DNA of 64,000 nt from Acaryochloridaceae cyanobacterium OTE_75_metabat_521 (GCA_031387975.1 JANNDV010000008.1:1-64000); one strand, 5' to 3'. Shown: positions 24,372-62,553, counted from the first letter of the stretch. A program made the numbers and translations. The notes: generated from the letters alone by a model not told the origin.

Positions 24372-24385
24372 GCTGATTTCTCCTT

Positions 24386-32200: not shown

Positions 32201-32734
32201 TCAAAAGAAGGCTTCTAACCCAAGCTCTTTCGCTGAATCTTTTGCACTCGGTACTGATTGTACATATCTTTCAACAGCAGCAGCCATGTATTCCTCGGAA
32301 GGCCAATACCCTTCGACAAAAGTAACAATTGATTCTGCTACTTCAATTCCTGATTCTTCGTCTAACTTTGGACCTGTAGAAATCTTAAGTACATGACTAA
32401 TAAAAGTGTCATCTCTAATATCAAGATGTGGATCATTTTCCAGCATCCAGCTAAAAAGACGTTCCCAACTTAGACTAAGAAGATCTATATTCTGATATTT
32501 ATCTTTGTAAATTAATTCTGAGTCACTAATTTCTATGGCAAGGCATATTTCGGTGTTAGTATTATAGTCTATACGAAGCCTACTGAAATCATAGTAATCT
32601 GACAAATATAAATTGTCTGAATAAGAAGACTTTGGTTCTCCAAATATAGATATGACTTCCTGGCGAGCCATTCCTAATTTGATTAGTCCTACTCCTTTGC
32701 CTAATTCAATTTCATATCTATTTTTTGCTTGCAT
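32201..32734 (-). CDS. Putative immunity protein of degenerate toxin module
   Basis: The ATG at 32732-32734 lies 1 nt after the stop of the upstream toxin-like ORF, with AAGGAG 8 nt upstream, as in the 24.4-kb locus. A truncated paralogous N-terminus (QTKNRYEVELEKRLD*) lies just downstream at ~32150-32200. The ORF track's longer version (to 32800) overlaps the toxin ORF. Confidence 0.4.
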   Translation of the reverse strand: MQAKNRYEIELGKGVGLIKLGMARQEVISIFGEPKSSYSDNLYLSDYYDFSRLRIDYNTNTEICLAIEISDSELIYKDKYQNIDLLSLSWERLFSWMLENDPHLDIRDDTFISHVLKISTGPKLDEESGIEVAESIVTFVEGYWPSEEYMAAAVERYVQSVPSAKDSAKELGLEAFF

Positions 32735-32735
32735 T

Positions 32736-34083: not shown

Positions 34084-34731
34084 TTATTTTGCAAGTCCAT
34101 CCGGTGATGCAGATGATGGTAGTGGTGTTGAAGTAGAGACTGATTTAGGCGCAACCGCCGCCTTGACCTGCCATTCCGATAAAGGGCGATTCACTGCATC
34201 TAGAAACCCTGTGGGCACTAGAACAACCTCTATTTTTTTTGTCGCAGCAGCAGAACCTGGATCAATTTGGGCATACACCGCGCTCTGATTAAAATTTTGG
34301 ATGCCCAACATGATTTGGTGAGTTTTTTGGTCTTTAAGCTTTAGAACAAGGGTTGCGGTGGGCTTGTCTAGACCAAATTCTTTGAGCTGAGCTGGCTCAA
34401 CCTGAAGGGTGCGCTCACTGGTGCCTGTTGCTAAAAGATTTAGCAACAAGGTGACAGCGCCTTCATCGGCAGCACCAGCCTTAGGAGCCTTGAGCTGCCA
34501 GCCTTTATCCGTTTTTTCTAGCTTTAGACTTTGGTTTTTAGCTTCAATAGTGAGCTGCGTAACGTCGGCTTCTTTGAGCGCGAAGATCGGTTTCGCTGCC
34601 TTTTTTGCCTCAGAAGTTTGAGGTTGCCCAGAGCGGGATTGATCCCACGCATAGATGCCGATCGCCGATAAGAGGGCGATCGCCAGCATTACCACCGTGC
34701 TTAATTTCAGTTTCATCGGCGTTTCCACCAT
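34084..34731 (-). CDS. DUF4340-like protein (GldG-associated)
   Basis: 215 aa with an N-terminal TM anchor. It is the last gene of an ABC ATPase / ABC-2 permease / GldG operon, the position DUF4340 proteins typically occupy in cyanobacteria. Confidence 0.5.
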   Translation of the reverse strand: MVETPMKLKLSTVVMLAIALLSAIGIYAWDQSRSGQPQTSEAKKAAKPIFALKEADVTQLTIEAKNQSLKLEKTDKGWQLKAPKAGAADEGAVTLLLNLLATGTSERTLQVEPAQLKEFGLDKPTATLVLKLKDQKTHQIMLGIQNFNQSAVYAQIDPGSAAATKKIEVVLVPTGFLDAVNRPLSEWQVKAAVAPKSVSTSTPLPSSASPDGLAK

Positions 34732-36332: not shown

Positions 36333-36418
36333 TGAATTTTCCTATTTTGTGAATCAGCCAATCATGCAGTTTCTATACAAGGCGCAAAAGCCCTGCTAGG
36401 CTTCGTTTAAGTCATCCG

Positions 36419-37222
36419 TCAAGACTGCTGAAAGCGAATAAGATCAATCGACTGAGCCGTCAAGAACAGCCCTAAGACCACATAGCTGACAAATAAGACC
36501 ACGCTGGAGCTATCGAGCATCCCTTGGGTCAAACTGGTGTAGTGCTTGAGCAGCGAAAGATGCTTTAAAATCTCTCCTCCTGCGCCCCCCAGGGTCTGAC
36601 CCAGAAAATCTAGAATCCACAGCACCAGTACCAGCACAAAGGTTAAAAATGCTGCCACAATGGCGCTGTCATTGAGAGAAGAAATGAACATCCCCAAAGA
36701 AAGCACTGCTGCCGCCAGCAAAATAATGCCAAGATGCCCCACAAAGAAAATTTGTAGCGGAAATGCAGGTTTGGCAGCGTTCAGCAAAAACAGCTCCAGC
36801 ATCGCAATCGGGAAAATTAGTGTGATCACAAAGACCAGTACCGCCATCAGCTTGCCCACGGCAACCGCCCAATTGGTAATGGGGGACGTAGCTAAAAGCT
36901 CTAAGGTGTGGCGCTTACGCTCCTCGGTATAGAGATTCATCGACAGCACGGGCAGAATAAACAGCAAAATGGAACCCATCACCGACAAGAAATTTTGCAA
37001 AACGAGGGTGGGCACATCAAGGGGTGCGCCGCCGCCTTGCCCCATCTGCCGCCCCAAATCGTTTTGAGTGGCGTACTGAATCACCTGCTGAGACACCAGC
37101 ACCAGAAACAGCGCTGTCAAAATCCAAAAGAAGCCAGCGATGATGTACGACAGCGGCGACTTAAAGTAGCTTTGCAGCTCCTTGCGGAAGATGGCGTCAA
37201 TATTAGCCAATACCGTAATCAT
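36419..37222 (-). CDS. ABC-2 family transporter permease
   Basis: 267 aa with six predicted TM segments. It overlaps the ATPase gene (ATGA-type coupling). Confidence 0.75.
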   Translation of the reverse strand: MITVLANIDAIFRKELQSYFKSPLSYIIAGFFWILTALFLVLVSQQVIQYATQNDLGRQMGQGGGAPLDVPTLVLQNFLSVMGSILLFILPVLSMNLYTEERKRHTLELLATSPITNWAVAVGKLMAVLVFVITLIFPIAMLELFLLNAAKPAFPLQIFFVGHLGIILLAAAVLSLGMFISSLNDSAIVAAFLTFVLVLVLWILDFLGQTLGGAGGEILKHLSLLKHYTSLTQGMLDSSSVVLFVSYVVLGLFLTAQSIDLIRFQQS

Positions 37223-38247
37223 TCTGTTTCCCCCGTCTGTATGTAATCGGTTTGGATGGTTTCTGCCATAGCGTCTGTTTCAATGGTAGATGCAGCCTCA
37301 ACAGCCGTTTCTTCGGTGGTGAGCTGTAAAAATACGTCCTCTAGGCTCGCGCCGACTTTCCGCATTTCATAAAGTCCCACATGGTCAGAGACTAACGCTG
37401 CGGCTAACTGTTTCCCAAAGTCTGCATTGGTTTCGGTACTTACTCGCAGCCTGTGGCGCTGTTCGGGTAGCTCATCGGCAGCAAGCCAGTGGAGTTCTTT
37501 GAGATCTGCCACACGCTGAAGTCGCTCGGTGATATAGCTGCGATCGCCCTCCACCTCTAGCTCATAGCGCATGCCGCCCGAGAGCTGAAGCATCAGGTCA
37601 TCGGGTGTCCCAGAGCTGACCACGCGACCTTTGTTAATAATGGCAACGCGATCGCAGGTCATACTTACTTCTGGCAAAATGTGGGTCGAGAGAATGACGG
37701 TGGTTTGCCCTGCCAAATTTTTAATCAGGTTGCGCACCTCAATAATTTGGCGCGGATCTAACCCAACGGTCGGCTCATCCAAAATAATGGCAGGTGGGTC
37801 ATGCACGATCGCCTGGGCAATGCCTACGCGCTGCCGAAAGCCCTTAGACAGCTTGCGAATGATCACCTTACGCTTTTCTTGCAGATTGCAGCGCTCAATG
37901 GCAGAAGTGATTTTAGTGGCGCGATCGCCCGCCGCAACGCCCTTAATACGAGCGACAAAGTTGAGATAGTCCTCAACGGTCATGTCTGTATAGAGCGGAG
38001 GCGTTTCGGGGAGATACCCAATGCGTTGACGCACCGCCATCGGGCTTTCATGAACCTCATAACCTGCCACTCTCGCCGTACCGTGACTGGCGGGGAGGTA
38101 CCCCGACAAAATTCTCATGGTGGTGGTTTTACCCGCACCGTTTGGCCCCAGTAACCCTAAGATTTCTCCAGGTTCCGCCTGAAATGTAACATCATTAATA
38201 GCAGTGGTTGAGCCATAGGTTTTGCTCAAGTGCTCAACATCAATCAT
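37219..38247 (-). CDS. ABC transporter ATP-binding protein
   Basis: Walker A GPNGAGKTT, signature LSKGFRQRVGIA, Walker B ILDEPTVGLD and H-loop STHIL. Confidence 0.85.
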   Translation of the reverse strand: MIDVEHLSKTYGSTTAINDVTFQAEPGEILGLLGPNGAGKTTTMRILSGYLPASHGTARVAGYEVHESPMAVRQRIGYLPETPPLYTDMTVEDYLNFVARIKGVAAGDRATKITSAIERCNLQEKRKVIIRKLSKGFRQRVGIAQAIVHDPPAIILDEPTVGLDPRQIIEVRNLIKNLAGQTTVILSTHILPEVSMTCDRVAIINKGRVVSSGTPDDLMLQLSGGMRYELEVEGDRSYITERLQRVADLKELHWLAADELPEQRHRLRVSTETNADFGKQLAAALVSDHVGLYEMRKVGASLEDVFLQLTTEETAVEAASTIETDAMAETIQTDYIQTGETE

Positions 38248-50605: not shown

Positions 50606-50657
50606 GCTGAATTGCGTTCCTTTTTTGCAAACATAATTATCTTAATTGGATGACGCC

Positions 50658-53399
50658 CTAAAGATAATCTTTAACTTTTTGAGCCGCAATCATCATGAGC
50701 AACATAATGCCGATAAACGAACTGAAGATCAGTAAATGAGTCGTGATGTTGACATCAAAAGCTTGCCCAAATTTCTCTCTAATCCCATTAATATTACCTT
50801 CGGCTTCGCTAATCGCTCTGCTATTGTTTACACTCCAATCCGTATAGACCTTACTCCATTTTTTGCTATCGTCTGGGTATTTCTCTATATCTTTCTTGTA
50901 AGCAATCTGCTCTTCAGCAGTAGCATTTTCAGGGCGCGTTGGCTGCACAGGCTGTATTGGTTCTGGTTCGTCAATTGCAGCATTCTTAAATGCTCTTACT
51001 CCGGCAAAATTACACTGCTTAAATACATTTGTTCCCATGCAGTTGCAGTCTTTTTTATCCTCTTTGGTCAGAGCATCCCGTTCTTTTTTGGTTTCTAAAG
51101 CCCAACAACTTTTCTTGGCTGGATCTTTTCCGGTATCTCTAGCAACGTCTCTCCCAAAGGCTGTTAAAGTTACAAGGGTTTCAAAAGGCCATTTAGTAAG
51201 AGATGTATTGTTCAATAAAATTCCGGGTGGCCCAAAGGTTTGGATGGGCAGAACACCACCGCCAAACAAGATCTGAGGAATCAGGAGCATCAGCACCAGC
51301 ATCGGCGCAACGCTTTGATTGGGTGAAATCGCTGAACCCAACAGACCCATCATCATGCCGCTTAGGGTTGCTAAGGTGAGGGTTAAAAACATTCCACCAA
51401 TAAAGGCTGGGGTATGCGGTAGGTCGATGGCGAGATTTTTGAATAAGACGAAAATGATGCCTTGATAGATTGATAAAATCACCGCAACCCAGACTTTAGA
51501 AAAGACGTAGGGCGCAATTTGAAGACCAATCATTCGCTCTCGTTTATAGATATCCATCTCTTTGACGATCTCACGCATCATGGAGACGCTGCCCACCATG
51601 AGCGTGAGCAGAACGGAGGTAAATAACATCGAAATAGTCAGGCTGGGGTTGCCCTTATTAATGTCGAGCAGGGTGCTCGGCCATGCCACTTTATCCAATA
51701 ACCCCAGCATGGGCGCTACCGCCAGCATCAGCATGAGACTAATGCGATCCCGCGATAAAATCGCAAGATTTCGCTGAGACAAAATCATAAACTGTCGCCA
51801 GCTAGAGGTGCGCTTAACCTTTGCCCCAGACTCTACTTTGCGCTGACGTTTTTTATCTTTGAGATTATCACCTTTGACGTTCAGGGACTGCTGGCGGCTG
51901 ACGATATATTTTTGGTAATAGGGAGACTGAAGATATTTGTTCCGCCATTCCTCAGGCGATCGCTCATTTTCAACCTTTTTGTAAATATCATCAAATCCCT
52001 CCACCCCAAAATATTTAAGGGCTTCCTGGGGCGGCCCAAAGAAGGCCAAATTCCCCCCAGGAGCCATGAAGACCACTTGGTCGCAGAGTTTCACGTTTGT
52101 AGTGGCATGGGTAATCAGCAAAACGGTACGGCCTTGATCCGCCAGAACCCGTAACAGCTCCATGAGATCTTTCTCGGTGCCAGGGTCTAATCCAGAAGTG
52201 GCTTCATCTAGAAAGAACAGACTGGGTTTGGTCAGTAGCTCTACGCCAATGGAAACCCGCTTAAGCTGACCGCCGCTCAACTTCTTAATCTGGACATCCC
52301 GTCGCACCGTGAGGTTTAGCTCACCCATCACCTCTTCAACCCGCTGATGGCGTTCGGCACGGGTGGTGTCCATCGGCATGCGCAGCTTGGCCGCATACTG
52401 AAGCGACTCTTCGACGGTTAACTCCATGTGAACAATGTCCTTTTGGGGGACATAGCCAATCTCAGTCCGGTAGGCGTTGAAGTTTTTGTACAGATCGATG
52501 CCATTGACATAGACTGAACCGCTGGTGGCAGGCCGGAACCCACTGATGGCGTCCATTAACGTTGACTTACCGCCGCCGCTCACCCCTGCGATCGCCACAA
52601 ATTCTCTCGGCTGAATCGAGAGCGAAATATCGTTAAGTAAATTGAGTCCCTTTGCCACCACCTTATTGATACGTAGGGCATCAATGCGAAGGTTGCCTTC
52701 CTCATTGGTTTTGACAAGGGTTTCATCTACATTAAAGGCAAGCTGCGTTGAACCAATCCGAATCGTGTCTCCCACTTTAAGCGCATGGCTACCTGCCACT
52801 AGCTCACCATTGAGAAAGGTTCCGTTTGTGGAGTTGAGATCGTACAGAACGTAGTTTCCTTGTTCCAGCTTAATTTGGCTGTGGAACCGTGAAGACGAGG
52901 GGTGATTGATCACCAAATCATTCGTCGCGTCGCGTCCAATATTAAGAAGGTTGCGTCCCCGCAGATTCATGCGCTGAGAAGACTCCAGCGCTTGGACGGG
53001 GAACGCATTAAACGGCAACACAACCGTTTTGTCAGAAGGCGGCAAATTATTGGGGGCTGGAGGCGCTGACACGGGAACGGCAGCCTCCGTTGCCTTAAAC
53101 GCAAACTGACAGACAGACCCAATTAAGATCTGGTCTCCATCTTTAAGTGGGTGTGGAATATACGCCTGAATGCGCTGGTTATTTAAGTAAGTGCCATCGG
53201 AACTGCCAACATCCGTTAAAAGGTAAACGCCATTCCCTAGGGCAACTTGGGCATGATGTCGAGATACCGTCAGGTCATCGCTAAGACAGAGAAGGTTATC
53301 GGGCGCACGCCCAATGGTGACAATGGTTTCATTCAGCCATAGATCTTGAAAAAACTGACCTTCGCTGTGAATGACAAGTTTGGCATTGGTTTGGGACAT
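50658..53399 (-). CDS. FHA-FHA-ABC(G-type) transporter: two N-terminal FHA domains, NBD, C-terminal ABC-2-like TMD with Cys-rich extracytoplasmic insert
   Basis: 913 aa. FHA-like TIGRAPDNLLCLSDDLTVSRHHAQV...SDGTYLNNQRI and IGRDATNDLVINHPSSSRFHSQIKL...NGTFLNGELV. NBD motifs GVSGGGKSTL and LSGGQLKRVSIGVELL, with Walker B FLDEATSGLD. The membrane domain carries CNCMGTNVFKQC. Confidence 0.8.
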   Translation of the reverse strand: MSQTNAKLVIHSEGQFFQDLWLNETIVTIGRAPDNLLCLSDDLTVSRHHAQVALGNGVYLLTDVGSSDGTYLNNQRIQAYIPHPLKDGDQILIGSVCQFAFKATEAAVPVSAPPAPNNLPPSDKTVVLPFNAFPVQALESSQRMNLRGRNLLNIGRDATNDLVINHPSSSRFHSQIKLEQGNYVLYDLNSTNGTFLNGELVAGSHALKVGDTIRIGSTQLAFNVDETLVKTNEEGNLRIDALRINKVVAKGLNLLNDISLSIQPREFVAIAGVSGGGKSTLMDAISGFRPATSGSVYVNGIDLYKNFNAYRTEIGYVPQKDIVHMELTVEESLQYAAKLRMPMDTTRAERHQRVEEVMGELNLTVRRDVQIKKLSGGQLKRVSIGVELLTKPSLFFLDEATSGLDPGTEKDLMELLRVLADQGRTVLLITHATTNVKLCDQVVFMAPGGNLAFFGPPQEALKYFGVEGFDDIYKKVENERSPEEWRNKYLQSPYYQKYIVSRQQSLNVKGDNLKDKKRQRKVESGAKVKRTSSWRQFMILSQRNLAILSRDRISLMLMLAVAPMLGLLDKVAWPSTLLDINKGNPSLTISMLFTSVLLTLMVGSVSMMREIVKEMDIYKRERMIGLQIAPYVFSKVWVAVILSIYQGIIFVLFKNLAIDLPHTPAFIGGMFLTLTLATLSGMMMGLLGSAISPNQSVAPMLVLMLLIPQILFGGGVLPIQTFGPPGILLNNTSLTKWPFETLVTLTAFGRDVARDTGKDPAKKSCWALETKKERDALTKEDKKDCNCMGTNVFKQCNFAGVRAFKNAAIDEPEPIQPVQPTRPENATAEEQIAYKKDIEKYPDDSKKWSKVYTDWSVNNSRAISEAEGNINGIREKFGQAFDVNITTHLLIFSSFIGIMLLMMIAAQKVKDYL

Positions 53400-53656
53400 T
53401 GGTGTGTCGATACCTTTAACACAATTATTTTTTATCCCTGAAAGATTTTCTAGGGATTTTTCGCTGAACTTATCTTGACAGAAGTTTATCTATTTCGATA
53501 CTGGCTTATTCTTGCACTTTATGTATTTTATTTCTGAAGCTGTAAAGCGATCATTGACTTGAGCGGCAGCAAGAAAATTTGTGCCCGCCTGAGGAATTAC
53601 CTACAAACAGTGTTTAATGGGGTTAATCTTGACCTCTTCGCCTCTGTGAGACGCTC

Positions 53657-56413
53657 ATGACGTCTAGCCTAGCCCGTTTGCAAATCTTGTCAGATTCTGG
53701 TGATGATCAGCGTCAAATACCGCTACATCCCCAGAGCGTTACCTTAGGCCGTGGCTACGATAATCACTTAGTGATTAATGAAACCTTTGTCTCTCGCTAC
53801 CATGCCCGTATTGACCGAGGCGAAAACGGATACACCATTATCGACCTGGGTAGCGCCAACGGCACTAAGGTGAATGACCAAAACATTACGCCCCAGGTGC
53901 CGCTACCGCTAAATCATGGCGATCGCATCGAGATTGGCGGCCTAAAAGTCTCTTTTTTAGTCAACGAAGCTACTGCCATCGCGCCCAGCGATTTAACGTC
54001 TCAACGGACTGTCCTGGCACCGACAGACATGGATTCGAGGCTAAAGTTAGGCGTACCGCCTGAAACGCTGTCATTAAGGGGGCGCGATAGCTTTACGATG
54101 GGTCGTGATCCTAAAAACGATCTCTCTATTCCCCATCCCATCGTCTCTCGTTTCCATGTCCGTATTCATCGGCGAGATGGTGCATTTATTATTACTGACC
54201 TCAACTCCAGTAACGGCACCTTCGTCAACGGTAAAGCGGTCAAAGGCTCGGTTGCCCTACGCCCCAACGATACGATTCAGGTGGGTCCTTGCAGCCTTGT
54301 TCTCAACCTCAACGAAACACTGACGCAGAATTTTGAAGAAGGCAATCTGCGGCTAGACGGCGTTCGACTGGGTAAGGTGGTGGGCAAAAATGTGAAACTG
54401 CTCAATGATGTTTCGCTCTCCATTTTGCCCCGAGAATTTGTGGCGCTGCTTGGCTCTAGTGGGAGTGGTAAATCAACGCTTCTAGACGCTTTGAATGGGC
54501 TTAGACCCGCTACTTCGGGTCAGGTACTCGTGAATGGCATGGATTTGTACAAAAACTTCCAAGTTTTTGCCACCCAAATGGGCTACGTGCCTCAGCAAAA
54601 TATCATCCATGCCGATCTCACGGTCGAACAGGCCATGTCTTTTGCGGCCCAGATGCGGATGCCGTCAGACACCACCCCCGCCGAACGTCAGCAGCGCATC
54701 CATGAGGTTTTGGATGACGTTGGGCTGTCTCACCGACGTAAGGTGCAAATTAAGCTCCTGAGTGGCGGTCAGCAGCGGCGGGTTTCGATTGGTGTGGAGC
54801 TGCTCAATAAGCCCAGCCTTTTCTTTTTGGATGAGGCTACCTCTGGGCTAGACCCTGGCACCGAGGCAGACATGATGGTGCTGTTGCGACAGTTGGCCGA
54901 CCAGGGGCGCACTATTCTGCTGATTACCCACGCCACCCAAAATATTCGGCAGTGCGATCTGGTGCTGTACCTGGCGGAGGGGGGGCGGATGGCCTACTTT
55001 GGCCCACCGGACAAAATCCTAGAATACTTCCGACATTACTTCCCCAAGGAATGCGAAGGGTTTGGGCTAGATGATTTCTCTGGCATTTATCGCTTTCTAG
55101 ACCCAGAGAAAAATCCTCAGGCTCCATCGGCAGAGCGCCTAGAGCAGCAGTTCCGCGACTCGCCGCTGTACCAACAGTATGTGGTTGAGCGTCAGCGCGA
55201 AGTGTTGCCCAATGCAGAAGAACGCTCTGCGAAAGTTGGCCGCAGGGCTGGCGGTAAGGCTGGCGGCAAAAGCAAGGTTCAAAATCGGATTTCGGGTTGG
55301 CGACAGTTCAGAATTTTGTCTTCGCGCAATTTGGCGGTGTTGGCAAAGGATAAGGCGACGCTGGCGCTCATGTTTGCGATCGCCCCGCTCCTCGGCATGC
55401 TGGACTTTATCACCTGGAAGTCTGACCTTTTCAGTGTTCAAAACGGCAGCGCTACCCAGTCCACTACCATGCTCTTTGTCAGCGCCCTGATTGCGGTGAT
55501 GATTGGCGAAATTACGACCATGAATGAGCTGGTCAAGGAAGATGAAATCTACCGTCGGGAACGACTGTATGGACTCAAGGTCGTGCCTTATATTTTGTCA
55601 AAGGTGTGGATTGCCTTTTTGTTTTCGGTGTATCAAGGGGCGGCGTACCTGCTCGTCAAGATGATTGCGGTGCAGTTCCCGGGTGGTTGGGAGGTGCTAT
55701 TCCATTTTTACCTAGACTTCACCATTGCCATTATGGCAGGGGCAATGCTGGGGCTGTTGGTGTCGGCAATCGCCCCCAACCAAAGCATGTCTCCGTTACT
55801 CATGATTATGGTGCTGGTGCCCCAGATTATCTTTAGCGGTGGCATCCAGCCCGCCAGCAACTTTGGGCCACCGGGTCAGCTCCTCAACCGAGTCAATGTG
55901 ATCAAATGGCCCTTTGAGCTGCTGGTGACGCATTCCGGCTTAGGGCAAGATGTGGCGAAAGATCCCTGTCTCAAAAAGACAACCGATGAGCGCGAAAAAT
56001 TTACGGCGGCAGAGTTAGAGCAATGTCAGTGCATTGGACCAAACGTCTTTAAAAGCTGCCGTTTTCCAGGCATCTTAACCAAATATGTGCCTGAAATTGA
56101 TCAGACCGAACCGTTACAGCCAAAGCTAGCGAAGCCCCCCAGCGATCCATCACCGGAGGCTCAACTCGCCTCTCAAAAAAAGGCAGCGATATTTCAGGTC
56201 AAGCTTAAAGCGTGGCAAAAAGACTATCAAACCTGGCAGCAAAAACGCCAAAAAGCCATCAGCGAAGCCGAAGGGGTCATCACCAAAACTTACGATGAAT
56301 TGGGCTATCTCTTTAACATCAATCCATTAGCTCACTTTGCCACTCAGGGGCTACTCATCCTCAGCATTCTGATTGCGCTGCCGTTTGTGCAAAAGCGCAA
56401 AGACGCAGTGTAA
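53657..56413 (+). CDS. FHA-FHA-ABC(G-type) transporter, divergent paralog of 50658..53399
   Basis: 918 aa with the same architecture. FHA: LGRGYDNHLVINETFVSRYHARI...NGTKVNDQNI and MGRDPKNDLSIPHPIVSRFHVRI...NGTFVNGKAV. NBD: GSSGSGKSTL and LSGGQQRRVSIGVELL. The TMD carries CQCIGPNVFKSC. It is divergently transcribed from its paralog across a ~260-bp intergenic region. Confidence 0.8.
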   Translation: MTSSLARLQILSDSGDDQRQIPLHPQSVTLGRGYDNHLVINETFVSRYHARIDRGENGYTIIDLGSANGTKVNDQNITPQVPLPLNHGDRIEIGGLKVSFLVNEATAIAPSDLTSQRTVLAPTDMDSRLKLGVPPETLSLRGRDSFTMGRDPKNDLSIPHPIVSRFHVRIHRRDGAFIITDLNSSNGTFVNGKAVKGSVALRPNDTIQVGPCSLVLNLNETLTQNFEEGNLRLDGVRLGKVVGKNVKLLNDVSLSILPREFVALLGSSGSGKSTLLDALNGLRPATSGQVLVNGMDLYKNFQVFATQMGYVPQQNIIHADLTVEQAMSFAAQMRMPSDTTPAERQQRIHEVLDDVGLSHRRKVQIKLLSGGQQRRVSIGVELLNKPSLFFLDEATSGLDPGTEADMMVLLRQLADQGRTILLITHATQNIRQCDLVLYLAEGGRMAYFGPPDKILEYFRHYFPKECEGFGLDDFSGIYRFLDPEKNPQAPSAERLEQQFRDSPLYQQYVVERQREVLPNAEERSAKVGRRAGGKAGGKSKVQNRISGWRQFRILSSRNLAVLAKDKATLALMFAIAPLLGMLDFITWKSDLFSVQNGSATQSTTMLFVSALIAVMIGEITTMNELVKEDEIYRRERLYGLKVVPYILSKVWIAFLFSVYQGAAYLLVKMIAVQFPGGWEVLFHFYLDFTIAIMAGAMLGLLVSAIAPNQSMSPLLMIMVLVPQIIFSGGIQPASNFGPPGQLLNRVNVIKWPFELLVTHSGLGQDVAKDPCLKKTTDEREKFTAAELEQCQCIGPNVFKSCRFPGILTKYVPEIDQTEPLQPKLAKPPSDPSPEAQLASQKKAAIFQVKLKAWQKDYQTWQQKRQKAISEAEGVITKTYDELGYLFNINPLAHFATQGLLILSILIALPFVQKRKDAV

Positions 56414-56421
56414 GCCAGCTT

Positions 56422-56829
56422 CTAATGGTCTTTCCCTTTCCATTCTCCGCTGGCAATCCATCTGCCGTCATACTGCTCAACCTTGGGCAGCGTCATAAAA
56501 TAAGTCCAGGCTAAATCCAGCGATCGCCCTTCCGCTTCAAACACCTCAACTTCTCGGCGCTGGTACTCATTTTGAGCTTCAGCACGATGCGGCTGATAAT
56601 CTTCTAGCCCGTCTAATGCTGCCAAAATGCTTTCGTCCGCCAGCTCTAGTAAATAGCCTTTGACCCACATCTCACCCAAGGTCATACCAGGGTAGCCTAG
56701 CGAGAGTTCAAAGAGTTTGCCCCGCACTTGGGCTGGTAGAGGAGAGGCTAGGGTGCGATCGCCCCCACAATAGCGTTCAAAATTGACCTGTCCAGGCTTC
56801 AGCGTCCCGTAGACAAACACCCTTAGCAT
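56422..56829 (-). CDS. Gamma-glutamyl cyclotransferase-like (AIG2/GGCT fold)
   Basis: MLRVFVYGTLKPGQVNFERY is the canonical YGTL N-terminus. Confidence 0.7.
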   Translation of the reverse strand: MLRVFVYGTLKPGQVNFERYCGGDRTLASPLPAQVRGKLFELSLGYPGMTLGEMWVKGYLLELADESILAALDGLEDYQPHRAEAQNEYQRREVEVFEAEGRSLDLAWTYFMTLPKVEQYDGRWIASGEWKGKDH

Positions 56830-56831
56830 GG

Positions 56832-57782
56832 CTAATTGTCGGCCTTCACCACATCTAATAATTCGAGAGTAGACACATTGCGGATATCAAACGTGATGAC
56901 ATCGGGATGATCGGGAAGCCTCAGCTCTCCTAACCCAATCCAGCCTTGATGCTGCAACACATACTCTTCGCGATGAATAAAGGCTTGAGTTTGGTCTTTT
57001 GCCACAATAAACGTGCCGTTGGTACTTTGGTCAATCAGCACAAACTTTCCCTTACGAAAAATAATTTGCACATGGTGGCGAGAGGTATAGTCATCGCAAA
57101 TCGACAGATCGTTCTCTGAGTTGCGTCCAATCGTAAAACCGCTTTGCTCGGGCCTCAGCTGTACCACCTGATCATGGTGCTTGAGCTGAAGCACGATTGT
57201 AAACACGGCAGTGTTTGGAATGTAGGTTCTCGCCGTTGTTAATTCTCGCCGCTCCCAAATAATTTGATGTACGCTAATGCGCCCGGTCTTACCAGGGCTG
57301 GGGATGCGCTCCATCGGTCGCGTTTGCATCTGAAGCGGAACCGACAGTGCCTGTACCGTTTCTTGACTCGTGAGAATCTGACCTGATTGTGCAAAGGCTA
57401 CGATTCGCGCAGCGGCATTAACCGTACCGCCAAAGATATCATCATTTTCTGTGATAACGGAGCCAAAGTTTAGCCCAATTCTTAAACCCAACTGAAGATC
57501 GTTAGTGGCGGCATACTGCGTGATGTTTTCCTGCATCTTGCAAGCCGCCCACACGGTCTTGTCCACCTGGGGAAAAATCGCCATAATCTCATCCCCAATC
57601 ACTTTAATCACCTGACCCTCGTGCTGCTGCACGATCTCAGTCAAACGCGTTAAGCAATTTTCGATAATGGTCTTAGCGGCTTCATCCCCCAGAACTTCGT
57701 AAAGTCTGGAGCTACGGCTAATGTCGGCAAACAGAACGGTTTGAAACAAGCTCATAGCCAGGTCACGCGCGAAAGCCGGCAA
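56832..57782 (-). CDS. Class III adenylate/guanylate cyclase fused to C-terminal FHA domain
   Basis: The N-terminal CHD is VLFADISRSSRLYEVLGDEAAKTIIENCLTRLTEIVQQHEGQVIKVIGDEIMAIF...GLNFGSV. The C-terminal FHA is FTIGRNSENDLSICDDYTSRHHVQIIFRKGKFVLIDQSTNGTFI. Confidence 0.7.
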   Translation of the reverse strand: MPAFARDLAMSLFQTVLFADISRSSRLYEVLGDEAAKTIIENCLTRLTEIVQQHEGQVIKVIGDEIMAIFPQVDKTVWAACKMQENITQYAATNDLQLGLRIGLNFGSVITENDDIFGGTVNAAARIVAFAQSGQILTSQETVQALSVPLQMQTRPMERIPSPGKTGRISVHQIIWERRELTTARTYIPNTAVFTIVLQLKHHDQVVQLRPEQSGFTIGRNSENDLSICDDYTSRHHVQIIFRKGKFVLIDQSTNGTFIVAKDQTQAFIHREEYVLQHQGWIGLGELRLPDHPDVITFDIRNVSTLELLDVVKADN

Positions 57783-57995
57783 ACGTTAGCGCTCATCCAC
57801 CCACCCTTGCCAGATAAAGTCTGTTGACGACAGCTGCAAATGGGGTCAATCTTTGGCTTCATGTTAAAGAAAGGCACAAGTTTATAGGTGAATCATCCAG
57901 GGTTAAAAGGGAAGATTCGTCACCGATAGCCTCTAAAACAATAGCCTATTCACCCTGCCTGTGTCAGTAGCTTAGGGTCAGTAGATTAGGCTGTT

Positions 57996-59306
57996 TTAGA
58001 GGGTTTTTGTCAGGTCTTGAAACACGCGCTCAAGAATAGAGATAGCTTCTGCGACTTCTGCCCCGCTCACAATCAACGGCGGCACAAAGCGCACAACTTT
58101 AGGCCCGGCTGGCACGAGTAACAGCCCTTTTTCCATCGCTGCTTTGACCACTTCTGGCGCAGTAAGAGCCACATCGGCGCTAATCTCCAGGCCGTTAATG
58201 AGTCCCCAACCGCGCACTTCGGTCATCAAGGTTGGGTACTGATGAGCCATCGCCCTTAACCCTTCTCTCAACTGTTCGCCGCGCGCCAGCACGTTTGCCA
58301 GCAGATTTTCTTGGGTGAGGGTTTGGCAAACCGCCAAAGCTGCCGCGCAGGCAAAGGGGTTGCCGCCAAAGGTGCTGGCGTGATCCCCAGGGGTAAATAC
58401 ATTACAGAAGGCCTTACACAGCATTGCACCAATGGGGATACCGCCCGCTAAGCCCTTGGCGGATGTAAAAATATCGGGTTCAATCCCTAAGTTTTCGTAG
58501 CCCCAGAGTTGACCACTGCGGCCTATGCCGACCTGTACTTCATCGAGCATGAGCAAAATGCCCTTGTCGCTACAGAGCTGACGCACCTTCTGGAAGTAGC
58601 TCACCTCTCCAGGTCGCACGCCGCCCTCGCCTTGCAGTGGCTCTAGCAGAATAGCGGCAACTTGACGTTCGGAAGCATCGAGTTGGGCGATCGCCGCTTC
58701 TAATGCCGCAATATCGTTATAGGGCACGTAGTGAAACCCTGGCACCAGCGGTGAGAAATTTTGATGGTACTTAGGCTGCGCCGTAGCCGTGACGGTGGCA
58801 AGGGTACGACCGTGAAAGCTGGCATTTGCCGTAATAATGACGGGGTTATGAATGCCTAACACCGTATGGGCGTACTTACGCGCTAACTTGATGGCCCCTT
58901 CATTGGCCTCAGCGCCAGAGTTGCAGAAAAATGCAAAATCTGCACAGGAGTTCTGGGTGAGCCACTGGGCTAAGTCCCCCTGTTGCGGAATGTAGTAAAG
59001 GTTTGAAACATGATGCAGCGTCTGAATCTGTTTCGTCACTGCATCCACCAGTGCCGGATGGGCATGACCCAAAGTGCAGGTGGCAATGCCTGCCACAAAA
59101 TCAAGGTAGCTGTTGCCGTCTGTATCCCAAAGGCGGCAGCCCTCTCCACGGGCGATCGCCAACGGAAACCGACCGTAGGTGGACATAACGCAGCGGTCAA
59201 AGGCAGCAGCGTCAAACCCTGAATCGGATGATATCGCCGCAGCAGGAGAGAGGGTTTCAAGACTCACAAGACTATCCTCGACTGGAATAATGGCTATGTG
59301 CTTCAA
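57996..59306 (-). CDS. argD: Acetylornithine aminotransferase (class III PLP aminotransferase)
   Basis: NSGAEANEGAIKLARKY, LLMLDEVQVGIGRSGQLWGYE and FTSAKGLAGGIPIGA, with the pyridoxal-Lys motif. Confidence 0.85.
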   Translation of the reverse strand: MKHIAIIPVEDSLVSLETLSPAAAISSDSGFDAAAFDRCVMSTYGRFPLAIARGEGCRLWDTDGNSYLDFVAGIATCTLGHAHPALVDAVTKQIQTLHHVSNLYYIPQQGDLAQWLTQNSCADFAFFCNSGAEANEGAIKLARKYAHTVLGIHNPVIITANASFHGRTLATVTATAQPKYHQNFSPLVPGFHYVPYNDIAALEAAIAQLDASERQVAAILLEPLQGEGGVRPGEVSYFQKVRQLCSDKGILLMLDEVQVGIGRSGQLWGYENLGIEPDIFTSAKGLAGGIPIGAMLCKAFCNVFTPGDHASTFGGNPFACAAALAVCQTLTQENLLANVLARGEQLREGLRAMAHQYPTLMTEVRGWGLINGLEISADVALTAPEVVKAAMEKGLLLVPAGPKVVRFVPPLIVSGAEVAEAISILERVFQDLTKTL

Positions 59307-59966: not shown

Positions 59967-61538
59967 ATGAACGCCTCCTCCCGCCTAACTGCCCTACTTT
60001 TGGGAACAACCGTAATGGTGGCTCAGCCTTTCCATTGGGAAAAGGCCATAGCAGGGGCTTCTATTGGCAAACTTGCCCCTGAAGTAACCGTTTTTATTCA
60101 GGGGGTTAATAACCCTGATAATTTTGGCTCTGGCGTTGTGATTGGACGCACTGGCAAAAACTATCTCGTTTTAACCGCAGCCCACGTCGTTGCAGCGGCA
60201 GATCGATACACTATTCAGGCCAGTGACGGTGTCCAGTACACGCTGCAAAACATTAGAAGGCTCCCTAATGTTGATATGGCAGTCGTTCAGTTTGAAAGCA
60301 GTAGCAGCTATACCGTTGCTCAGATGGGCAACTCCGATGAAGTTAGCTTAACCACTGGCGTATATGTGGCGGGGTACCCGAAACCAGGGCAAAACATTAG
60401 AGTGCCTGTACTCACCATTACAAACGGTGAAATTGCCCAGGTTCTTCCAGCCAATGCTTCTGTTGATGGTTATGGGTTTGCCTATACAAACTCAACCCGC
60501 GCTGGCATGAGTGGTGGGCCTGTGTTTAATAGCCTTGGAGAAGTGATCGCCATTCACGGACGAAAAGAAGGCGAAGCGGGCGGTGGGGCAACCAATGGTG
60601 CTTGGCTGAATCTTGGTATTCCCATTAATCGCTATAAGGGAGCAGGGACAGGCGGCATTCAAATGGCGGCAGCATCCAATGTCGATCTTCAGCAAAAGGC
60701 ACGGGAATCTGCCCAGCGCCAAGCCCAAGAGCAAGCCAAACGCCAAGCTCAGGAACAAGCTCAAGAGCAAGCTCAGCGCCAAGCTCAAGAGCAACAAGCT
60801 AAAGAACAACAAGCTAAAGAACAAGCACGGCAGCGAGCGGCGGCATCAGAAGCGGCTCAGCGCCAAGCGCAAGAACAGGCTCAACGTCAGGCGACAGAGG
60901 CTCAGCGCCAAGCGCAAGCACAACAACAAACTGCTTTGGCGGCGCGGCAGGCGCAGGCGCAAGCCCAACAAAGAGCGGCAGCATTAGAAGCGGCTCAGCG
61001 CCAAGCGCAGGAGCAAGCCCAACAAAAAAATATCCAGGCACAGCAAGCCAATGCCCAACGGCAAGCTCAGATTTCCGCTTCCGCAAAGAACCTTTTGGCA
61101 AGTGCTTCACCCTTTGCGGCCTCTGCAATGTCAGCCCAGCCTTCTAGCATCTCGTCTACGCGAGAAGTTTGTAAGGATGTTCGCATTAATACGATTGTGA
61201 TTAAGCGCTGTAGTACCGAAGTGGTTAATCAAATTCAAGAATCCGCCTCTTCGCCTTCGTCTAACAGTTCAGGGAATGCGGTCAATAGCGGGAATGCGCG
61301 GGCTGCAAGTGGTAATTATCAAGCGGCTGTAGATGAGTATAATTCGGCAATTCAAGGTAATTCTGGCCTTGCGATCGCATTTTTCAATCGCGGTTTAGCC
61401 CACTACAACTTAGGCCAAAAAGATCGGGCGATCGCAGACTTTTCTAAGGCCGCAGAGTTATTTAGATCCCAAGGAGACTCTCAAAAATTCCAAAAAACAC
61501 AGGATATTCTACAGGCGCTTACCCAGGCTAATTCTTAG
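59967..61538 (+). CDS. Secreted trypsin-like serine protease domain + Q/A-rich low-complexity linker + TPR-like C-terminus
   Basis: 523 aa. The protease domain has a His motif (VLTAAHVV), an Asp, and a Ser motif (GMSGGPVF), a chymotrypsin-fold triad order. About 120 aa of AQRQAQEQA repeats follow. The C-terminus (AIQGNSGLAIAFFNRGLAHYNLGQKDRAIADFSKAAELF) is TPR-like. Confidence 0.65.
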   Translation: MNASSRLTALLLGTTVMVAQPFHWEKAIAGASIGKLAPEVTVFIQGVNNPDNFGSGVVIGRTGKNYLVLTAAHVVAAADRYTIQASDGVQYTLQNIRRLPNVDMAVVQFESSSSYTVAQMGNSDEVSLTTGVYVAGYPKPGQNIRVPVLTITNGEIAQVLPANASVDGYGFAYTNSTRAGMSGGPVFNSLGEVIAIHGRKEGEAGGGATNGAWLNLGIPINRYKGAGTGGIQMAAASNVDLQQKARESAQRQAQEQAKRQAQEQAQEQAQRQAQEQQAKEQQAKEQARQRAAASEAAQRQAQEQAQRQATEAQRQAQAQQQTALAARQAQAQAQQRAAALEAAQRQAQEQAQQKNIQAQQANAQRQAQISASAKNLLASASPFAASAMSAQPSSISSTREVCKDVRINTIVIKRCSTEVVNQIQESASSPSSNSSGNAVNSGNARAASGNYQAAVDEYNSAIQGNSGLAIAFFNRGLAHYNLGQKDRAIADFSKAAELFRSQGDSQKFQKTQDILQALTQANS

Positions 61539-61689
61539 AGAATGCCTGTGTCTAAGGGGTCTGAATTAAATAATGCGGCCTGCGTGGCTATCTTCAAACT
61601 TTTGTGATACATGATCGATTTTAAATAAAAGATTCCCATACTAGGGATATAAGCATTTATCTTAATTCCGTATAGCTTATCTATAAAAT

Positions 61690-62553
61690 ATGCGTTTAAA
61701 CGGTTTGACGATTGGGATTGTATTGTGCGGCAGTTTGTTGACGTTTGCGTGTCGATCCACTTCAGCGACAGCACCTGATCGCATTAAAACAAGCAATCAA
61801 ATCGCGCCGTCGCCTTCACTGCATAGTTTTGCGCTAACTCAGAACAAAATTCAGCTTTTACAGCGGCATGCTCGTGGCATTACCGTAAAGGTTATTTCTG
61901 GAGATGACTGGGGTTCTGGGATCTTAATTCGGCAGCAGGGACAGCGCTATACCGTCTTAACCAATGAGCATGTTTTGTGGATCGGCGATCGCTACACGGT
62001 TCAGACCTATGACGGAAAGCAGCACCTGGCACAACGACAATCCTCAGGCAAGTTTGGCAAAAATGACTTAGGGCTACTGGAATTTAGCAGTACCCCATCC
62101 ACGATCTATCCGGTTGCTGCGATCGGCTGCTCTCTAGAACTATCGGCGGGTACCCCTGTCTATGCCGCAGGGTTTCCACTGCCACTCATGGACACTGCTG
62201 TCAAAGGGTTCAAATTTACAACGGGAAAAATCTCGCTCATTGCGTCTAAAGCCCTAGAAGGCGGCTATCAGGTCGGCTACTCTAACAATATTGAAAAAGG
62301 CATGAGTGGCGGCCCAGTGCTCAATGCGCAGGGTGAAGTGATTGCCGTTAACGGCATGCATCAAGAGCCATTATGGGGCGACCCCTACATTTACCAAGAT
62401 GGTTCTAAGCCGAAGTCAAGCTTATTTTCGATGTTTTCGCGCTCAAGCTGGGCGATTCCGATGGAGACTGCCCTCCAAACTAAAGCCCTAACCGCAGCAC
62501 ATTTTGCTCGCCAGTGCCCTACCGCTAGCTCCGTTAAACAGGCTCAAGGCTGA
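61690..62553 (+). CDS. Secreted trypsin-like serine protease (paralog)
   Basis: 287 aa. VLTNEHVL and GMSGGPVLNAQGEVIAVNG parallel the upstream protease (GMSGGPVFNSLGEVIAIHG). Confidence 0.65.
   Translation: MRLNGLTIGIVLCGSLLTFACRSTSATAPDRIKTSNQIAPSPSLHSFALTQNKIQLLQRHARGITVKVISGDDWGSGILIRQQGQRYTVLTNEHVLWIGDRYTVQTYDGKQHLAQRQSSGKFGKNDLGLLEFSSTPSTIYPVAAIGCSLELSAGTPVYAAGFPLPLMDTAVKGFKFTTGKISLIASKALEGGYQVGYSNNIEKGMSGGPVLNAQGEVIAVNGMHQEPLWGDPYIYQDGSKPKSSLFSMFSRSSWAIPMETALQTKALTAAHFARQCPTASSVKQAQG

What the first reader, a model, noticed from the sequence alone, without database searches (positions are those of the whole stretch)
50606..57782. FHA-domain signalling island: divergent pair of FHA-FHA-ABCG transporters plus an FHA-fused adenylate cyclase
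Two 913- and 918-aa paralogs face each other across a 260-bp intergenic region. Each has two N-terminal FHA domains, an ABC NBD and a C-terminal ABC-2-like membrane domain. This is the architecture of mycobacterial Rv1747, which is regulated by Ser/Thr-kinase phosphorylation read by its FHA domains. Both carry a conserved Cys-rich extracytoplasmic insert (CNCMGTNVFKQC / CQCIGPNVFKSC) and a terminal TM helix after a coiled-coil. The divergent pairing suggests a heterodimeric half-transporter. Two genes downstream, a class III nucleotide cyclase has its own C-terminal FHA domain. That makes three proteins and five FHA domains within 7 kb, with no Ser/Thr kinase in the window. This looks like a phosphothreonine-gated export plus second-messenger module. 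Its substrate and controlling kinase are unknown.
Basis: partly seen in the sequence, partly recalled or inferred. Interest (0 to 1): 0.65.

Follow-up and report, generated by a model that had tools for sequence, protein, structure and literature searches.

The report
Paired FHA-gated ABCG-type exporters, cyanobacterial
Two back-to-back genes encode Rv1747-like ABC exporters whose N-terminal FHA domains read phosphothreonine; they belong to a widespread but unstudied cyanobacterial family, and the nearby FHA-fused adenylate cyclase looks like a lineage-specific neighbour, not a proven partner.

Summary
ABC-A (50658-53399, minus strand, 913 aa) and ABC-B (53657-56413, plus strand, 918 aa) are divergent paralogs, 46% identical. 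Each has FHA-FHA-NBD-ABC2 membrane domains. A 307-aa class III cyclase with a C-terminal FHA domain lies at 56832-57755. No Ser/Thr kinase is found in the window.

A high-confidence AlphaFold model matches eukaryotic ABCG2/G5/G8/G1. The "Cys-rich insert plus terminal helix" is the ABCG loop between TM5 and TM6 (EL3), enlarged to about 140 aa. It has four conserved cysteines and a 53-residue helix, with no Pfam or PDB counterpart.

A threonine followed by two hydrophobic residues is conserved in the disordered linker between the FHA domains. It occurs in both paralog clades and resembles the Rv1747 phospho-acceptor site. Kinase genes sit directly beside homologs elsewhere, including Acaryochloris marina.

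The divergent pair is kept in at least five relatives with different flanking genes. However, genomes with only A or only B exist, and both ATPase sites are canonical, so an obligate heterodimer is unproven.

The cyclase travels with argD. It is beside the pair only in the closest relatives, so the "island" is weakly supported.

Verdict: a new member of a known kind, of moderate interest.

The parts
50658..53399 (-). ABC-A: FHA-FHA-NBD-ABCG-type TMD half-transporter, 913 aa
   Evidence: ORF. Pfam hits FHA x2, ABC_tran and ABC2_membrane. AF2 model with pLDDT 85. Foldseek top hits are ABCG2/G5G8/G1 with target TM-scores of 0.69-0.85 across the ten best hits.
53091..53384 (-). ABC-A FHA1 (about aa 6-103). 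The GR, SRxH and distal N residues are present, but the Asn of the 'NGT' motif is replaced by Asp (SSDGT).
   Evidence: Best PDB relatives are GarA/Rv1827.
52980..53087 (-). ABC-A disordered linker between the FHA domains (about aa 105-140). It contains the conserved K-T125-V-V (codon 53025-53027), the candidate phospho-acceptor.
   Evidence: pLDDT below 50. The Thr is conserved in 107 of 118 homologs while the surrounding columns vary. It is also kept in 101 of 119 sequences outside the B-search set in a second alignment.
52704..52976 (-). ABC-A FHA2 (about aa 142-232), with a fully canonical pThr-binding set (G155 R156, S170 R171 H173, N192 G193 T194)
   Evidence: Matches Rv1747 FHA-2 (6cah, E 1e-6) and FHA-1 (6ccd).
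51891..52685 (-). ABC-A nucleotide-binding domain, with canonical Walker A, Q-loop, LSGGQ signature, Walker B with Glu, D-loop and H-loop
51165..51803 (-). ABC-A membrane domain, TM1-TM5 plus short helices (ABC2_membrane)
50748..51164 (-). ABC-A enlarged extracytoplasmic loop EL3 (about aa 746-884). It has four conserved Cys (765, 785, 787, 796), a Pro-rich stretch and a 53-residue amphipathic helix.
50664..50747 (-). ABC-A terminal TM6 helix, followed by the conserved cytoplasmic QKxKD tail
53400..53656 (.). Shared divergent control region. It has two blocks conserved across four genomes: 53411-53431 (GTGTTAAAGGTA on the ABC-A strand, 23 nt upstream of the start) and 53606-53644 (CAGTGTTTAATGGGGTTAATC, 47 nt upstream of ABC-B). 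It also has a sigma-70-like TTGACA-16-GATACT site at 53475-53502 (plus strand).
   Evidence: No Rfam family and no significant RNA fold.
53657..56413 (+). ABC-B: paralogous FHA-FHA-NBD-ABCG-type half-transporter, 918 aa. Both FHA domains are canonical. The linker has R-T118-V-L (codon 54008-54010). EL3 Cys are at 771, 790, 792, 801. TM6 is about aa 893-911.
   Evidence: An identical protein exists on an NCBI contig of 67,038 bases.
56832..57755 (-). Class III adenylate cyclase (aa 6-160) with a C-terminal FHA domain (aa 208-273), 307 aa from the ATG. D11, K51, D55, D106, N113 and R117 are all present.
   Evidence: (closest PDB entry is Ma1120, E 7e-16). A promoter-like site lies at 57938-57967 on the minus strand.
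56422..56829 (-). GGACT/AIG2-like gamma-glutamyl cyclotransferase-like gene. It starts 2 bp after the cyclase stop and is probably co-transcribed with the cyclase. Context only.
   Evidence: The same order is seen in L084-86 and in Altericista.
57996..59306 (-). argD-family acetylornithine aminotransferase. It lies next to the cyclase in every close relative examined. Context only.
   Evidence: (TIGR00707, 522 bits against a cutoff of 410)

Best explanation
ABC-A and ABC-B are cyanobacterial members of the Rv1747 type of transporter. Each is an ABCG-fold (type V) half-exporter whose cytoplasmic N-terminus carries two phosphothreonine-binding FHA domains joined by a disordered linker.

Proposed mechanism:
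1. A Hanks-type Ser/Thr kinase encoded outside this window phosphorylates the conserved linker threonine (T125 in A, T118 in B; motif T followed by two hydrophobic residues).
2. The FHA domains of the same or a neighbouring subunit bind that pThr, or pThr on the kinase or on other partners.
3. As in Rv1747, this switches on or clusters the dimeric transporter.
4. The transporter then uses two fully competent ATP sites to expel a hydrophobic or lipid-like envelope component across the plasma membrane.
5. The enlarged EL3 loop faces the periplasm. Its four cysteines probably form disulfides. It forms a cap or stalk above the exit, and this part has no characterised counterpart.

The two genes are co-regulated from one divergent control region. 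They can probably form A/A, B/B and possibly A/B dimers.

The neighbouring cyclase-FHA protein is an independent pThr-regulated adenylate cyclase in a cyclase-GGACT unit next to argD. It may share upstream kinases with the transporters, but it is not demonstrably part of the same module.

Shown here: domain content, fold, motif integrity, conservation of the Thr and the Cys residues, and synteny.
Inferred: phosphorylation, activation, direction and substrate of transport, dimer composition and disulfides.
For: Architecture:
- Pfam domains.
- AF2 model with pLDDT 85. The linker at model residues 104-139 has pLDDT below 50.
- All 50 top Foldseek hits are ABCG/PDR-type transporters; ABCG2/G5/G8/G1 hits reach target TM-scores of 0.75-0.85.
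- A single HMMER stretch covers NBD plus TMD of ABCG2.

FHA competence:
- GR, SRxH and NGT residues are invariant or nearly so in FHA2 and mostly so in FHA1.
- Sequence matches to the Rv1747 FHA-1/FHA-2 and GarA structures.

Linker threonine:
- Conserved in 107 of 118 homologs within an otherwise variable, disordered segment.
- Thr followed by hydrophobic residues is conserved in the B-type sequences out to Gloeomargarita (Thr in 45 of the 53 sequences tallied).
- Rv1747 is phosphorylated at linker Thr-150 (PPApTTRIP) and Thr-208, and this positively regulates it (PMC3138270).

Kinase linkage elsewhere:
- A Pkinase gene lies 165 bp upstream of, and co-directional with, the A. marina ABC-A-type homolog.
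- Kinase-like ORFs begin within about 600 bp downstream of FHA-ABC genes in at least 10 loci from other phyla.

ATPase motifs are canonical in both proteins.

Topology: hydropathy plus the positively charged tail place EL3 outside the cytoplasm.

Location: an FHA-ABC transporter was reported in the Spirulina plasma-membrane proteome (PMC6584798).

Co-regulation: conserved blocks in the shared spacer.
Against: - No kinase or phosphatase is in the 64-kb window, so the regulator is unidentified.
- FHA1 of ABC-A has Asp in place of the conserved Asn, and only about half of the family keeps either residue. It may bind weakly or bind something else.
- No phosphorylation data exist for any cyanobacterial member.
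- Export direction and substrate rest only on analogy with ABCG and Rv1747.
- The monomer model cannot show how EL3 packs in a dimer.
Confidence: 0.62

Rival explanations
1. Obligate A/B heterodimer. The two half-transporters work only together, like ABCG5/G8, which is why they are kept head to head under one control region.
For: The divergent A|B pair is retained in at least five distinct relatives although the flanking genes differ. These are metagenome contigs L084-86, Altericista sp. CCNU0014, GCA_965187715 and GCA_964644325. A probable further case is the 44,905-base contig that carries both P0008 and P0260. A and B fall in two deep clades of an NJ tree (46% identity), so the adjacency has outlasted long divergence. 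Cis elements in the shared spacer are conserved.
Against: ABC-A-type genes occur without a partner within 8-10 kb (GCA_031422435 and A. marina). ABC-B-type genes likewise occur alone (Synechococcus PCC 6312, Gloeomargarita, Synechococcales C). No Acaryochloris protein appears among the close hits to B. Both ATPase sites are fully canonical, unlike the degenerate site of G5/G8. No dimer model could be computed.
Confidence: 0.3
2. Two independent homodimeric exporters. After an ancient duplication they took on different substrates or different kinase inputs, and they share only a bidirectional promoter.
For: Genomes showing only A or only B exist. All motifs are canonical in both proteins. EL3, the likely substrate-exit or partner-facing part, is the most divergent region: 36-56% identity to P0007 there against 90-100% in the N-terminal half. 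The FHA1 Asn/Asp difference between A and B may mean different ligands.
Against: The adjacency persists through rearrangements of the flanks. That is not expected for unrelated functions, although co-regulation alone could explain it.
Confidence: 0.4
3. A three-gene 'export plus cAMP' module. The FHA-cyclase and both transporters are wired to one kinase, so that one phosphorylation signal gates export and cAMP synthesis together.
For: Five FHA domains lie within 7 kb. The order argD-cyclase-GGACT-ABC-B-ABC-A is identical in metagenome contigs whose cyclase is 84% identical and in Altericista (82%). The cyclase has every catalytic residue and a canonical FHA domain.
Against: The cyclase is on the opposite strand and belongs to a different transcription unit. 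In a Thermosynechococcaceae MAG (72% identity) it is still next to argD, but no ABC pair is within 10 kb. Homologs at 53% and 44% identity have unrelated neighbours. Two genomes that carry the pair (L082, L097) have no cyclase beside it. In the genomes that do share the arrangement, ordinary housekeeping neighbours such as argD (and dapB-aroK in L084) are conserved as well, so this synteny does not discriminate.
Confidence: 0.15
4. The FHA domains act mainly as phospho-independent scaffolds that cluster the transporter or recruit other proteins, rather than as a kinase-controlled switch.
For: The unphosphorylated Rv1747 regulatory module can still phase-separate at high concentration (review PMC9312465). 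FHA1 varies at the Asn position. There is no local kinase.
Against: Conservation of the phosphate-contacting Arg, Ser and His in all five FHA domains and of the linker Thr is hard to explain without pThr binding. Kinase genes are adjacent in many homolog loci.
Confidence: 0.1

Closest known systems
Mycobacterium tuberculosis Rv1747 (FHA-FHA-NBD-TMD ABC exporter regulated by PknF)
   Same: Same domain order. Two FHA domains are joined by a disordered linker that carries a Thr followed by hydrophobic residues (Rv1747 pT150: PPApTTRIP). The NBD precedes an ABC-2-type TMD. FHA2 matches the Rv1747 FHA structures 6cah and 6ccd. A kinase gene lies directly upstream in the A. marina homolog, as pknF does in M. 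tuberculosis.
   Different: There is no kinase in the operon or in the window. There are two diverged paralogs head to head instead of one gene. The linker is much shorter (about 36 aa) and has one conserved Thr rather than two mapped sites. EL3 is enlarged (about 140 aa, 4 Cys), whereas an actinobacterial (Thermoleophilia) homolog has about 76 aa and no Cys. Rv1747 itself was not aligned here. The host has two membranes and a periplasm. The substrate is certainly different, because PIMs are mycobacterial lipids.
Eukaryotic ABCG half-transporters (ABCG2, ABCG5/G8, ABCG1)
   Same: Best structural matches (target TM-score 0.75-0.85, about 20-26% identity). NBD-then-TMD order. A TM5-EL3-TM6 arrangement with cysteines in EL3. 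They function as dimers, and G5/G8 is a heterodimer of products of divergently transcribed genes (the last point is from my own knowledge).
   Different: ABCG proteins have no FHA domains. The score against the White/ABCG model TIGR00955 is 218 bits against a cutoff of 736. EL3 here is about twice as long, includes a 53-residue helix, and has no detectable structural similarity to solved structures. Both ATP sites are canonical, unlike G5/G8.
Cyanobacterial FHA-containing adenylate cyclases (Synechocystis Cya1/slr1991, Anabaena CyaD); minimal mycobacterial cyclase Ma1120
   Same: A class III catalytic domain with a Lys/Asp pair specifying ATP and two metal-binding Asp residues. The closest solved relative is Ma1120 (E 7e-16). 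An FHA domain is fused to a cyclase, as in Cya1 and CyaD (from my own knowledge; not confirmed in the papers I read).
   Different: The domain order is reversed: cyclase first, FHA at the C-terminus. It is a compact protein of about 300 aa. In the word-limited search its family is small (163 proteins at E of 1e-10 or better). It occurs in one cyanobacterial clade and at 35-40% identity in Proteobacteria.

Membership tests
Rv1747-type FHA-regulated ABC exporter | Two N-terminal FHA domains that keep the pThr-contacting residues (GR, SxxH, NG) | tested here: met
   Pfam FHA x2 in both proteins. The residues are invariant or nearly so. The exception is FHA1 of ABC-A, which has Asp instead of the Asn.
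Rv1747-type FHA-regulated ABC exporter | Intrinsically disordered linker between the FHA domains that carries phospho-acceptor threonine(s) | tested here: inconclusive
   The linker has pLDDT below 50. A single Thr followed by two hydrophobic residues is conserved in 107 of 118 homologs and is kept in both paralog clades. Phosphorylation itself cannot be tested here.
Rv1747-type FHA-regulated ABC exporter | NBD followed by an ABC-2/ABCG-type membrane domain in one polypeptide | tested here: met
Rv1747-type FHA-regulated ABC exporter | Cognate Hanks-type kinase encoded in the same operon (pknF-Rv1747) | tested here: not met
   No kinase is in the window. The feature is met in the A. marina homolog and in at least 10 loci from other phyla. 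It is typical of the family but not required for membership.
Rv1747-type FHA-regulated ABC exporter | Phosphorylation-dependent activation or clustering | not testable with these tools
   Needs biochemistry or genetics. The reference data are in PMC3138270 and PMC9312465.
ABCG / type V ABC exporter fold | Fold match over NBD plus TMD, with TM5-EL3-TM6 | tested here: met
   Foldseek E 1e-25, target TM-score 0.69-0.85 in the ten best hits. Hydropathy agrees.
Eukaryotic White/ABCG subfamily (TIGR00955) | Score above the curated cutoff | tested here: not met
   218 bits against a cutoff of 736. These are relatives of that subfamily, not members.
Obligate heterodimeric half-transporter pair (ABCG5/G8-like) | Asymmetric ATP sites, one of them degenerate | tested here: not met
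   Walker A, Q-loop, signature, Walker B with Glu, D-loop and H-loop are canonical in both proteins.
Obligate heterodimeric half-transporter pair (ABCG5/G8-like) | Strict co-occurrence and adjacency of the two partners across genomes | tested here: inconclusive
   Adjacent in at least five relatives. But loci with only A or only B exist. Whole genomes could not be searched.
Class III adenylate cyclase | Two metal-binding Asp, the substrate Lys and Asp, and the transition-state Asn and Arg | tested here: met
   D11, D55, K51, D106, N113 and R117 are present. They align to Ma1120.
Cya1/CyaD-type FHA-cyclase | FHA domain N-terminal to the catalytic domain | tested here: not met
   Here the cyclase is at aa 6-160 and the FHA at aa 208-273. 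The Cya1 domain order is from my own knowledge.

The most novel reading that the evidence does not exclude
The pair forms a phosphothreonine-gated A/B heterodimeric ABCG-type exporter. Its disulfide-braced, 53-residue periplasmic helices form a stalk of a previously undescribed fold that hands a cyanobacterial envelope lipid or glycolipid towards the outer layers. The same orphan kinase also drives the adjacent FHA-cyclase. This would couple envelope export to cAMP signalling.
Probability: 0.12. Interest if true: 0.65.

Novelty: new member of a known kind. Interest (0 to 1): 0.35.

Why it matters
FHA-regulated ABC exporters have been studied only in M. tuberculosis (Rv1747), where phosphorylation by PknF controls virulence-related export and membrane clustering.

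This locus shows that the same design is widespread in cyanobacteria, down to a conserved linker threonine. It comes with features that can be tested directly:
- a single conserved candidate phospho-site;
- a paralog pair that may or may not heterodimerise;
- a large Cys-rich periplasmic domain with no structural precedent.

It offers a non-pathogenic system for asking how Ser/Thr phosphorylation gates an ABCG-fold transporter, and what such transporters export in bacteria with two membranes. It does not reveal a new principle.

Tried and rejected
- Search for a kinase or phosphatase in the window: Pfam on 50 of the 53 ORFs of at least 150 aa, a six-frame motif scan, and tblastn with the A. 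marina kinase. Nothing was found.
- Riboswitch or structured leader in the shared spacer: no Rfam family apart from a chance snoRNA-like hit below threshold, and the fold z-score was -0.8. Rejected.
- A common 11-nt motif upstream of both genes (GTGTTWAAWGG): only the ABC-B copy fits exactly. The ABC-A copy is one base shorter. I kept it only as two separately conserved blocks.
- The afdb50 library was unavailable, so no direct structural comparison with the Rv1747 model was possible.
I worked out synteny with the look-up of encoding contigs instead.
- The exact-sequence look-up of ABC-A and of the cyclase failed because my coordinates dropped the Met or included the stop codon. The source organism therefore remains unnamed. 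The closest named relative is Altericista sp. CCNU0014.
- Numbering note: models and alignments A1 and A2 lack the initial Met, so their numbering is the protein numbering minus 1.

Full report
**1. What is there**

The region holds two long ORFs transcribed away from each other:
- ABC-A, 50658-53399 on the minus strand, 913 aa.
- ABC-B, 53657-56413 on the plus strand, 918 aa.
- A 257-bp spacer separates them.

Pfam finds in each protein two FHA stretches, ABC_tran and ABC2_membrane, with E-values from 1e-17 to 1e-41. BLASTP gives 46% identity over the full length.

Converging on ABC-B from the other strand is a GGACT-like gene (56422-56829). Two bases upstream of it is a 307-aa protein (56832-57755 from its ATG) with an N-terminal class III cyclase domain and a C-terminal FHA domain. 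Next come an argD-family aminotransferase (57996-59306) and trypsin-TPR proteins. ABC-A is followed by dapB and a shikimate kinase gene.

Five FHA domains in three proteins within 7 kb is therefore correct.

No Pkinase or PP2C domain occurs in any of the 50 window ORFs of at least 150 aa that were scanned. No HRDxKxxN motif occurs in any frame. A cyanobacterial kinase gives no tblastn hit in the window.

**2. Fold and topology**

An AlphaFold2 model of ABC-A built from 118 homologs is confident (pLDDT 85, pTM 0.70). Model numbering is protein numbering minus 1. The model shows:
- FHA1 (5-102);
- a disordered linker (104-139, pLDDT below 50);
- FHA2 (141-231);
- the NBD (238-502);
- membrane helices (532-744);
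- a region of short helices (745-826);
- one 53-residue helix (827-879);
- a final membrane helix (884-911).

All 50 best Foldseek hits in the PDB are eukaryotic ABCG/PDR-type transporters. They include ABCG2, G5/G8, G1, the plant transporters G25 and G16, and fungal Cdr1. For the ABCG2, G5/G8 and G1 hits, E is about 1e-25 and the target TM-score is 0.75-0.85. HMMER aligns NBD plus TMD to ABCG2 in one stretch. The White/ABCG model TIGR00955 is the top NCBIfam hit but scores far below its cutoff (218 against 736 bits).

Hydropathy gives five helices, a long hydrophilic segment and a sixth helix followed by a conserved basic tail, QKxKD.

**3. The EL3 domain**

Four cysteines are invariant or nearly so in 118 homologs (A: 765, 785, 787, 796; B: 771, 790, 792, 801). 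The motifs CW, CxCxG, FKxCxFPG and AEG are also conserved.

A rough survey of homolog loci gives:
- about 160-210 aa with 4 Cys in cyanobacteria and in Anaerolineae;
- about 75 aa with 2 Cys in other Chloroflexi;
- about 52 aa with no Cys in Chromatiaceae;
- about 76 aa with no Cys in a Thermoleophilia (actinobacterial) homolog.

Searched alone against 1.84 billion cluster representatives, the 143-aa EL3 finds only 102 proteins. In every full-length match checked it lies near the C-terminus. The eight matches checked by Pfam are ABC proteins with zero, one, two or three FHA domains, and one carries a CHAT domain as well.

EL3 is also the fastest-evolving part of the protein.

**4. Evidence for phosphothreonine control**

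All five FHA domains keep the Arg, Ser and His that contact the phosphate. The only departure is FHA1 of ABC-A, which has SSDGT instead of SxNGT. That position varies across the family (Asp in 62 of 118 sequences).

FHA2 matches the solved Rv1747 FHA-2 and FHA-1 domains, and FHA1 matches GarA.

The strongest new point is in the linker. In an otherwise unalignable, disordered segment, one threonine is conserved in 107 of 118 homologs, as [K/R]-T-[T/V]-[V/I/L]. An independent alignment shows a Thr followed by two hydrophobic residues at the matching place in the B-type sequences, out to Gloeomargarita (Thr in 45 of the 53 sequences tallied). In the window these are T125 of ABC-A (KTVVLP) and T118 of ABC-B (RTVLAP).

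In Rv1747, PknF phosphorylates linker Thr-150 (PPApTTRIP) and Thr-208. Both FHA domains bind these sites, and phosphorylation positively regulates the transporter (PMC3138270). The phosphorylated FHA module also drives clustering (PMC9312465).

Kinase genes are physically linked to homologs elsewhere. In Acaryochloris marina a Pkinase gene lies 165 bp upstream of the ABC-A-type homolog and in the same direction. In at least ten loci from Chloroflexota, Chromatiaceae, Thermoleophilia and a Victivallaceae MAG, a kinase-like ORF begins within about 600 bp downstream of the FHA-ABC gene.

Phosphorylation itself remains an inference.

**5. Heterodimer or not**

For the heterodimer:
- The divergent A|B pair recurs in metagenome contigs L084-86, Altericista sp. 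CCNU0014, GCA_965187715 and GCA_964644325.
- The outer neighbours differ between these genomes: dapB, DUF2518, an unannotated ORF or DUF411 on one side, and GGACT, Cupin_2 or YaaC on the other.
- An NJ tree places A and B in two deep cyanobacterial clades.
- Two short blocks in the spacer are conserved across four genomes. A TTGACA-16-GATACT site faces ABC-B.

Against the heterodimer:
- ABC-A-type genes stand alone in GCA_031422435 and in A. marina.
- ABC-B-type genes stand alone in Synechococcus PCC 6312, Gloeomargarita and Synechococcales cyanobacterium C.
- Both proteins have fully canonical ATPase motifs, unlike ABCG5/G8.

My estimates are roughly 0.3 for an obligate heterodimer and 0.4 for independent homodimers. 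The remainder is for mixed assemblies.

**6. The cyclase**

It has both metal-binding Asp (D11, D55), the Lys/Asp pair that specifies ATP (K51, D106) and the Asn/Arg pair (N113, R117). It aligns best to the minimal mycobacterial cyclase Ma1120. Its FHA domain is canonical.

The cyclase-then-FHA family of about 300 aa looks small: 163 proteins at E of 1e-10 or better in a word-limited search. It occurs in one cyanobacterial clade and, at 35-40% identity, in Proteobacteria.

Synteny:
- The order argD-cyclase-GGACT-ABC-B-ABC-A is identical in L084-86 and in Altericista.
- In a Thermosynechococcaceae MAG (72% identity) the cyclase is still next to argD, but no ABC pair is within 10 kb.
- Homologs at 53% and 44% identity have unrelated neighbours.
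- Two genomes that carry the pair have no cyclase beside it.

The cyclase is also on the opposite strand from ABC-B and has its own promoter-like site. The three-gene "island" is therefore most simply local synteny within one lineage. A shared kinase remains possible but has no support here.

**7. What is known, and novelty**

The family is large: more than 6,600 hits at E of 1e-20 or better for each paralog. Sources annotate members as "FHA domain-containing protein" or "ABC transport system ATP-binding/permease protein".

I found no functional study of a cyanobacterial member. The only mention is a review reporting an FHA-ABC transporter up-regulated in the Spirulina plasma membrane in the cold (PMC6584798; searches).

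The locus is thus a new member of the Rv1747 kind. Its lineage-specific features are the enlarged EL3, the paralog pair and the absence of a local kinase. The source is an unnamed cyanobacterium. An identical ABC-B is on an NCBI contig of 67,038 bases, and the closest named relative is Altericista.

**8. Verdict**

Interest is moderate (0.35). The useful outputs are a precise candidate phospho-site, a testable question about the dimer, and an uncharacterised periplasmic domain.

Noticed in passing
window 22161-26599 (- strand): A polymorphic-toxin cassette. A 737-aa protein with a C-terminal AHH nuclease domain (24386-26599) is followed by three tandem Imm11 immunity-like paralogs (23658-24371, 22866-23429, 22161-22856). 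GC skew is strongly negative (-0.30) across 24-26 kb.
   Followed up: no
window 29288-33800: A low-GC stretch (0.40-0.44 against about 0.51 elsewhere). It holds five ORFs of 165-302 aa with no Pfam hit. It may be an acquired island.
   Followed up: no
window 53411-53431 and 53606-53644; L084, L087, L082, L081: Two short blocks in the ABC-A/ABC-B spacer are conserved across four or five genomes while the rest of the spacer has diverged. One is GTGTTAAAGGTA, 23 nt upstream of ABC-A. It is also present where ABC-A has no partner. The other is CAGTGTTTAATGGGGTTAATC, upstream of ABC-B. The two cores resemble each other in inverted orientation. No Rfam family or stable RNA fold was found.
   Followed up: partly
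L081 (GCA_031422435.1) 10001-12727 versus window 50658-53399: The ABC-A ortholog P0007 is 100% identical to the window protein over the first ~100 residues and 90-98% over residues ~150-350. It is only 36-56% identical in the periplasmic EL3 region. This mosaic pattern suggests recombination or very fast EL3 evolution.
   Followed up: partly
proteins P0060, P0069, P0117, P0120, P0257-P0268, P0299, P0305, P0314-P0331: The FHA module is modular in this transporter family. Variants exist with three FHA domains (about 1000-1040 aa, for example in Thermosynechococcus and Synechococcus PCC 6312), one FHA domain or none. One protein has a CHAT protease-like domain ahead of the FHA domains. All keep the same Cys-rich EL3.
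   Followed up: partly
window 59967-62553; L084-86, L096: Genes for trypsin-like (Trypsin_2) plus TPR proteins recur near ABC-B-type genes in the window, in L084-86 and in Synechococcales cyanobacterium C; a COP23 gene accompanies them in L084-86 and L096. This may be the ancestral neighbourhood of ABC-B.
   Followed up: no
window 34084-38247 (- strand): A separate ABC-2 operon: an ATPase, an ABC2_membrane_2 permease, a GldG-like ABC_transp_aux protein and DUF4340. It is unrelated to the FHA transporters.
   Followed up: no
L091 6511-7836 (Acaryochloris marina): The kinase directly upstream of the A. marina ABC-A-type homolog is 441 aa. It has an N-terminal Cys-rich (zinc-ribbon-like) segment, a Pkinase domain and a C-terminal DUF8082. 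It is a concrete candidate type for the missing regulator, and its ortholog could be sought in the source genome.
   Followed up: partly
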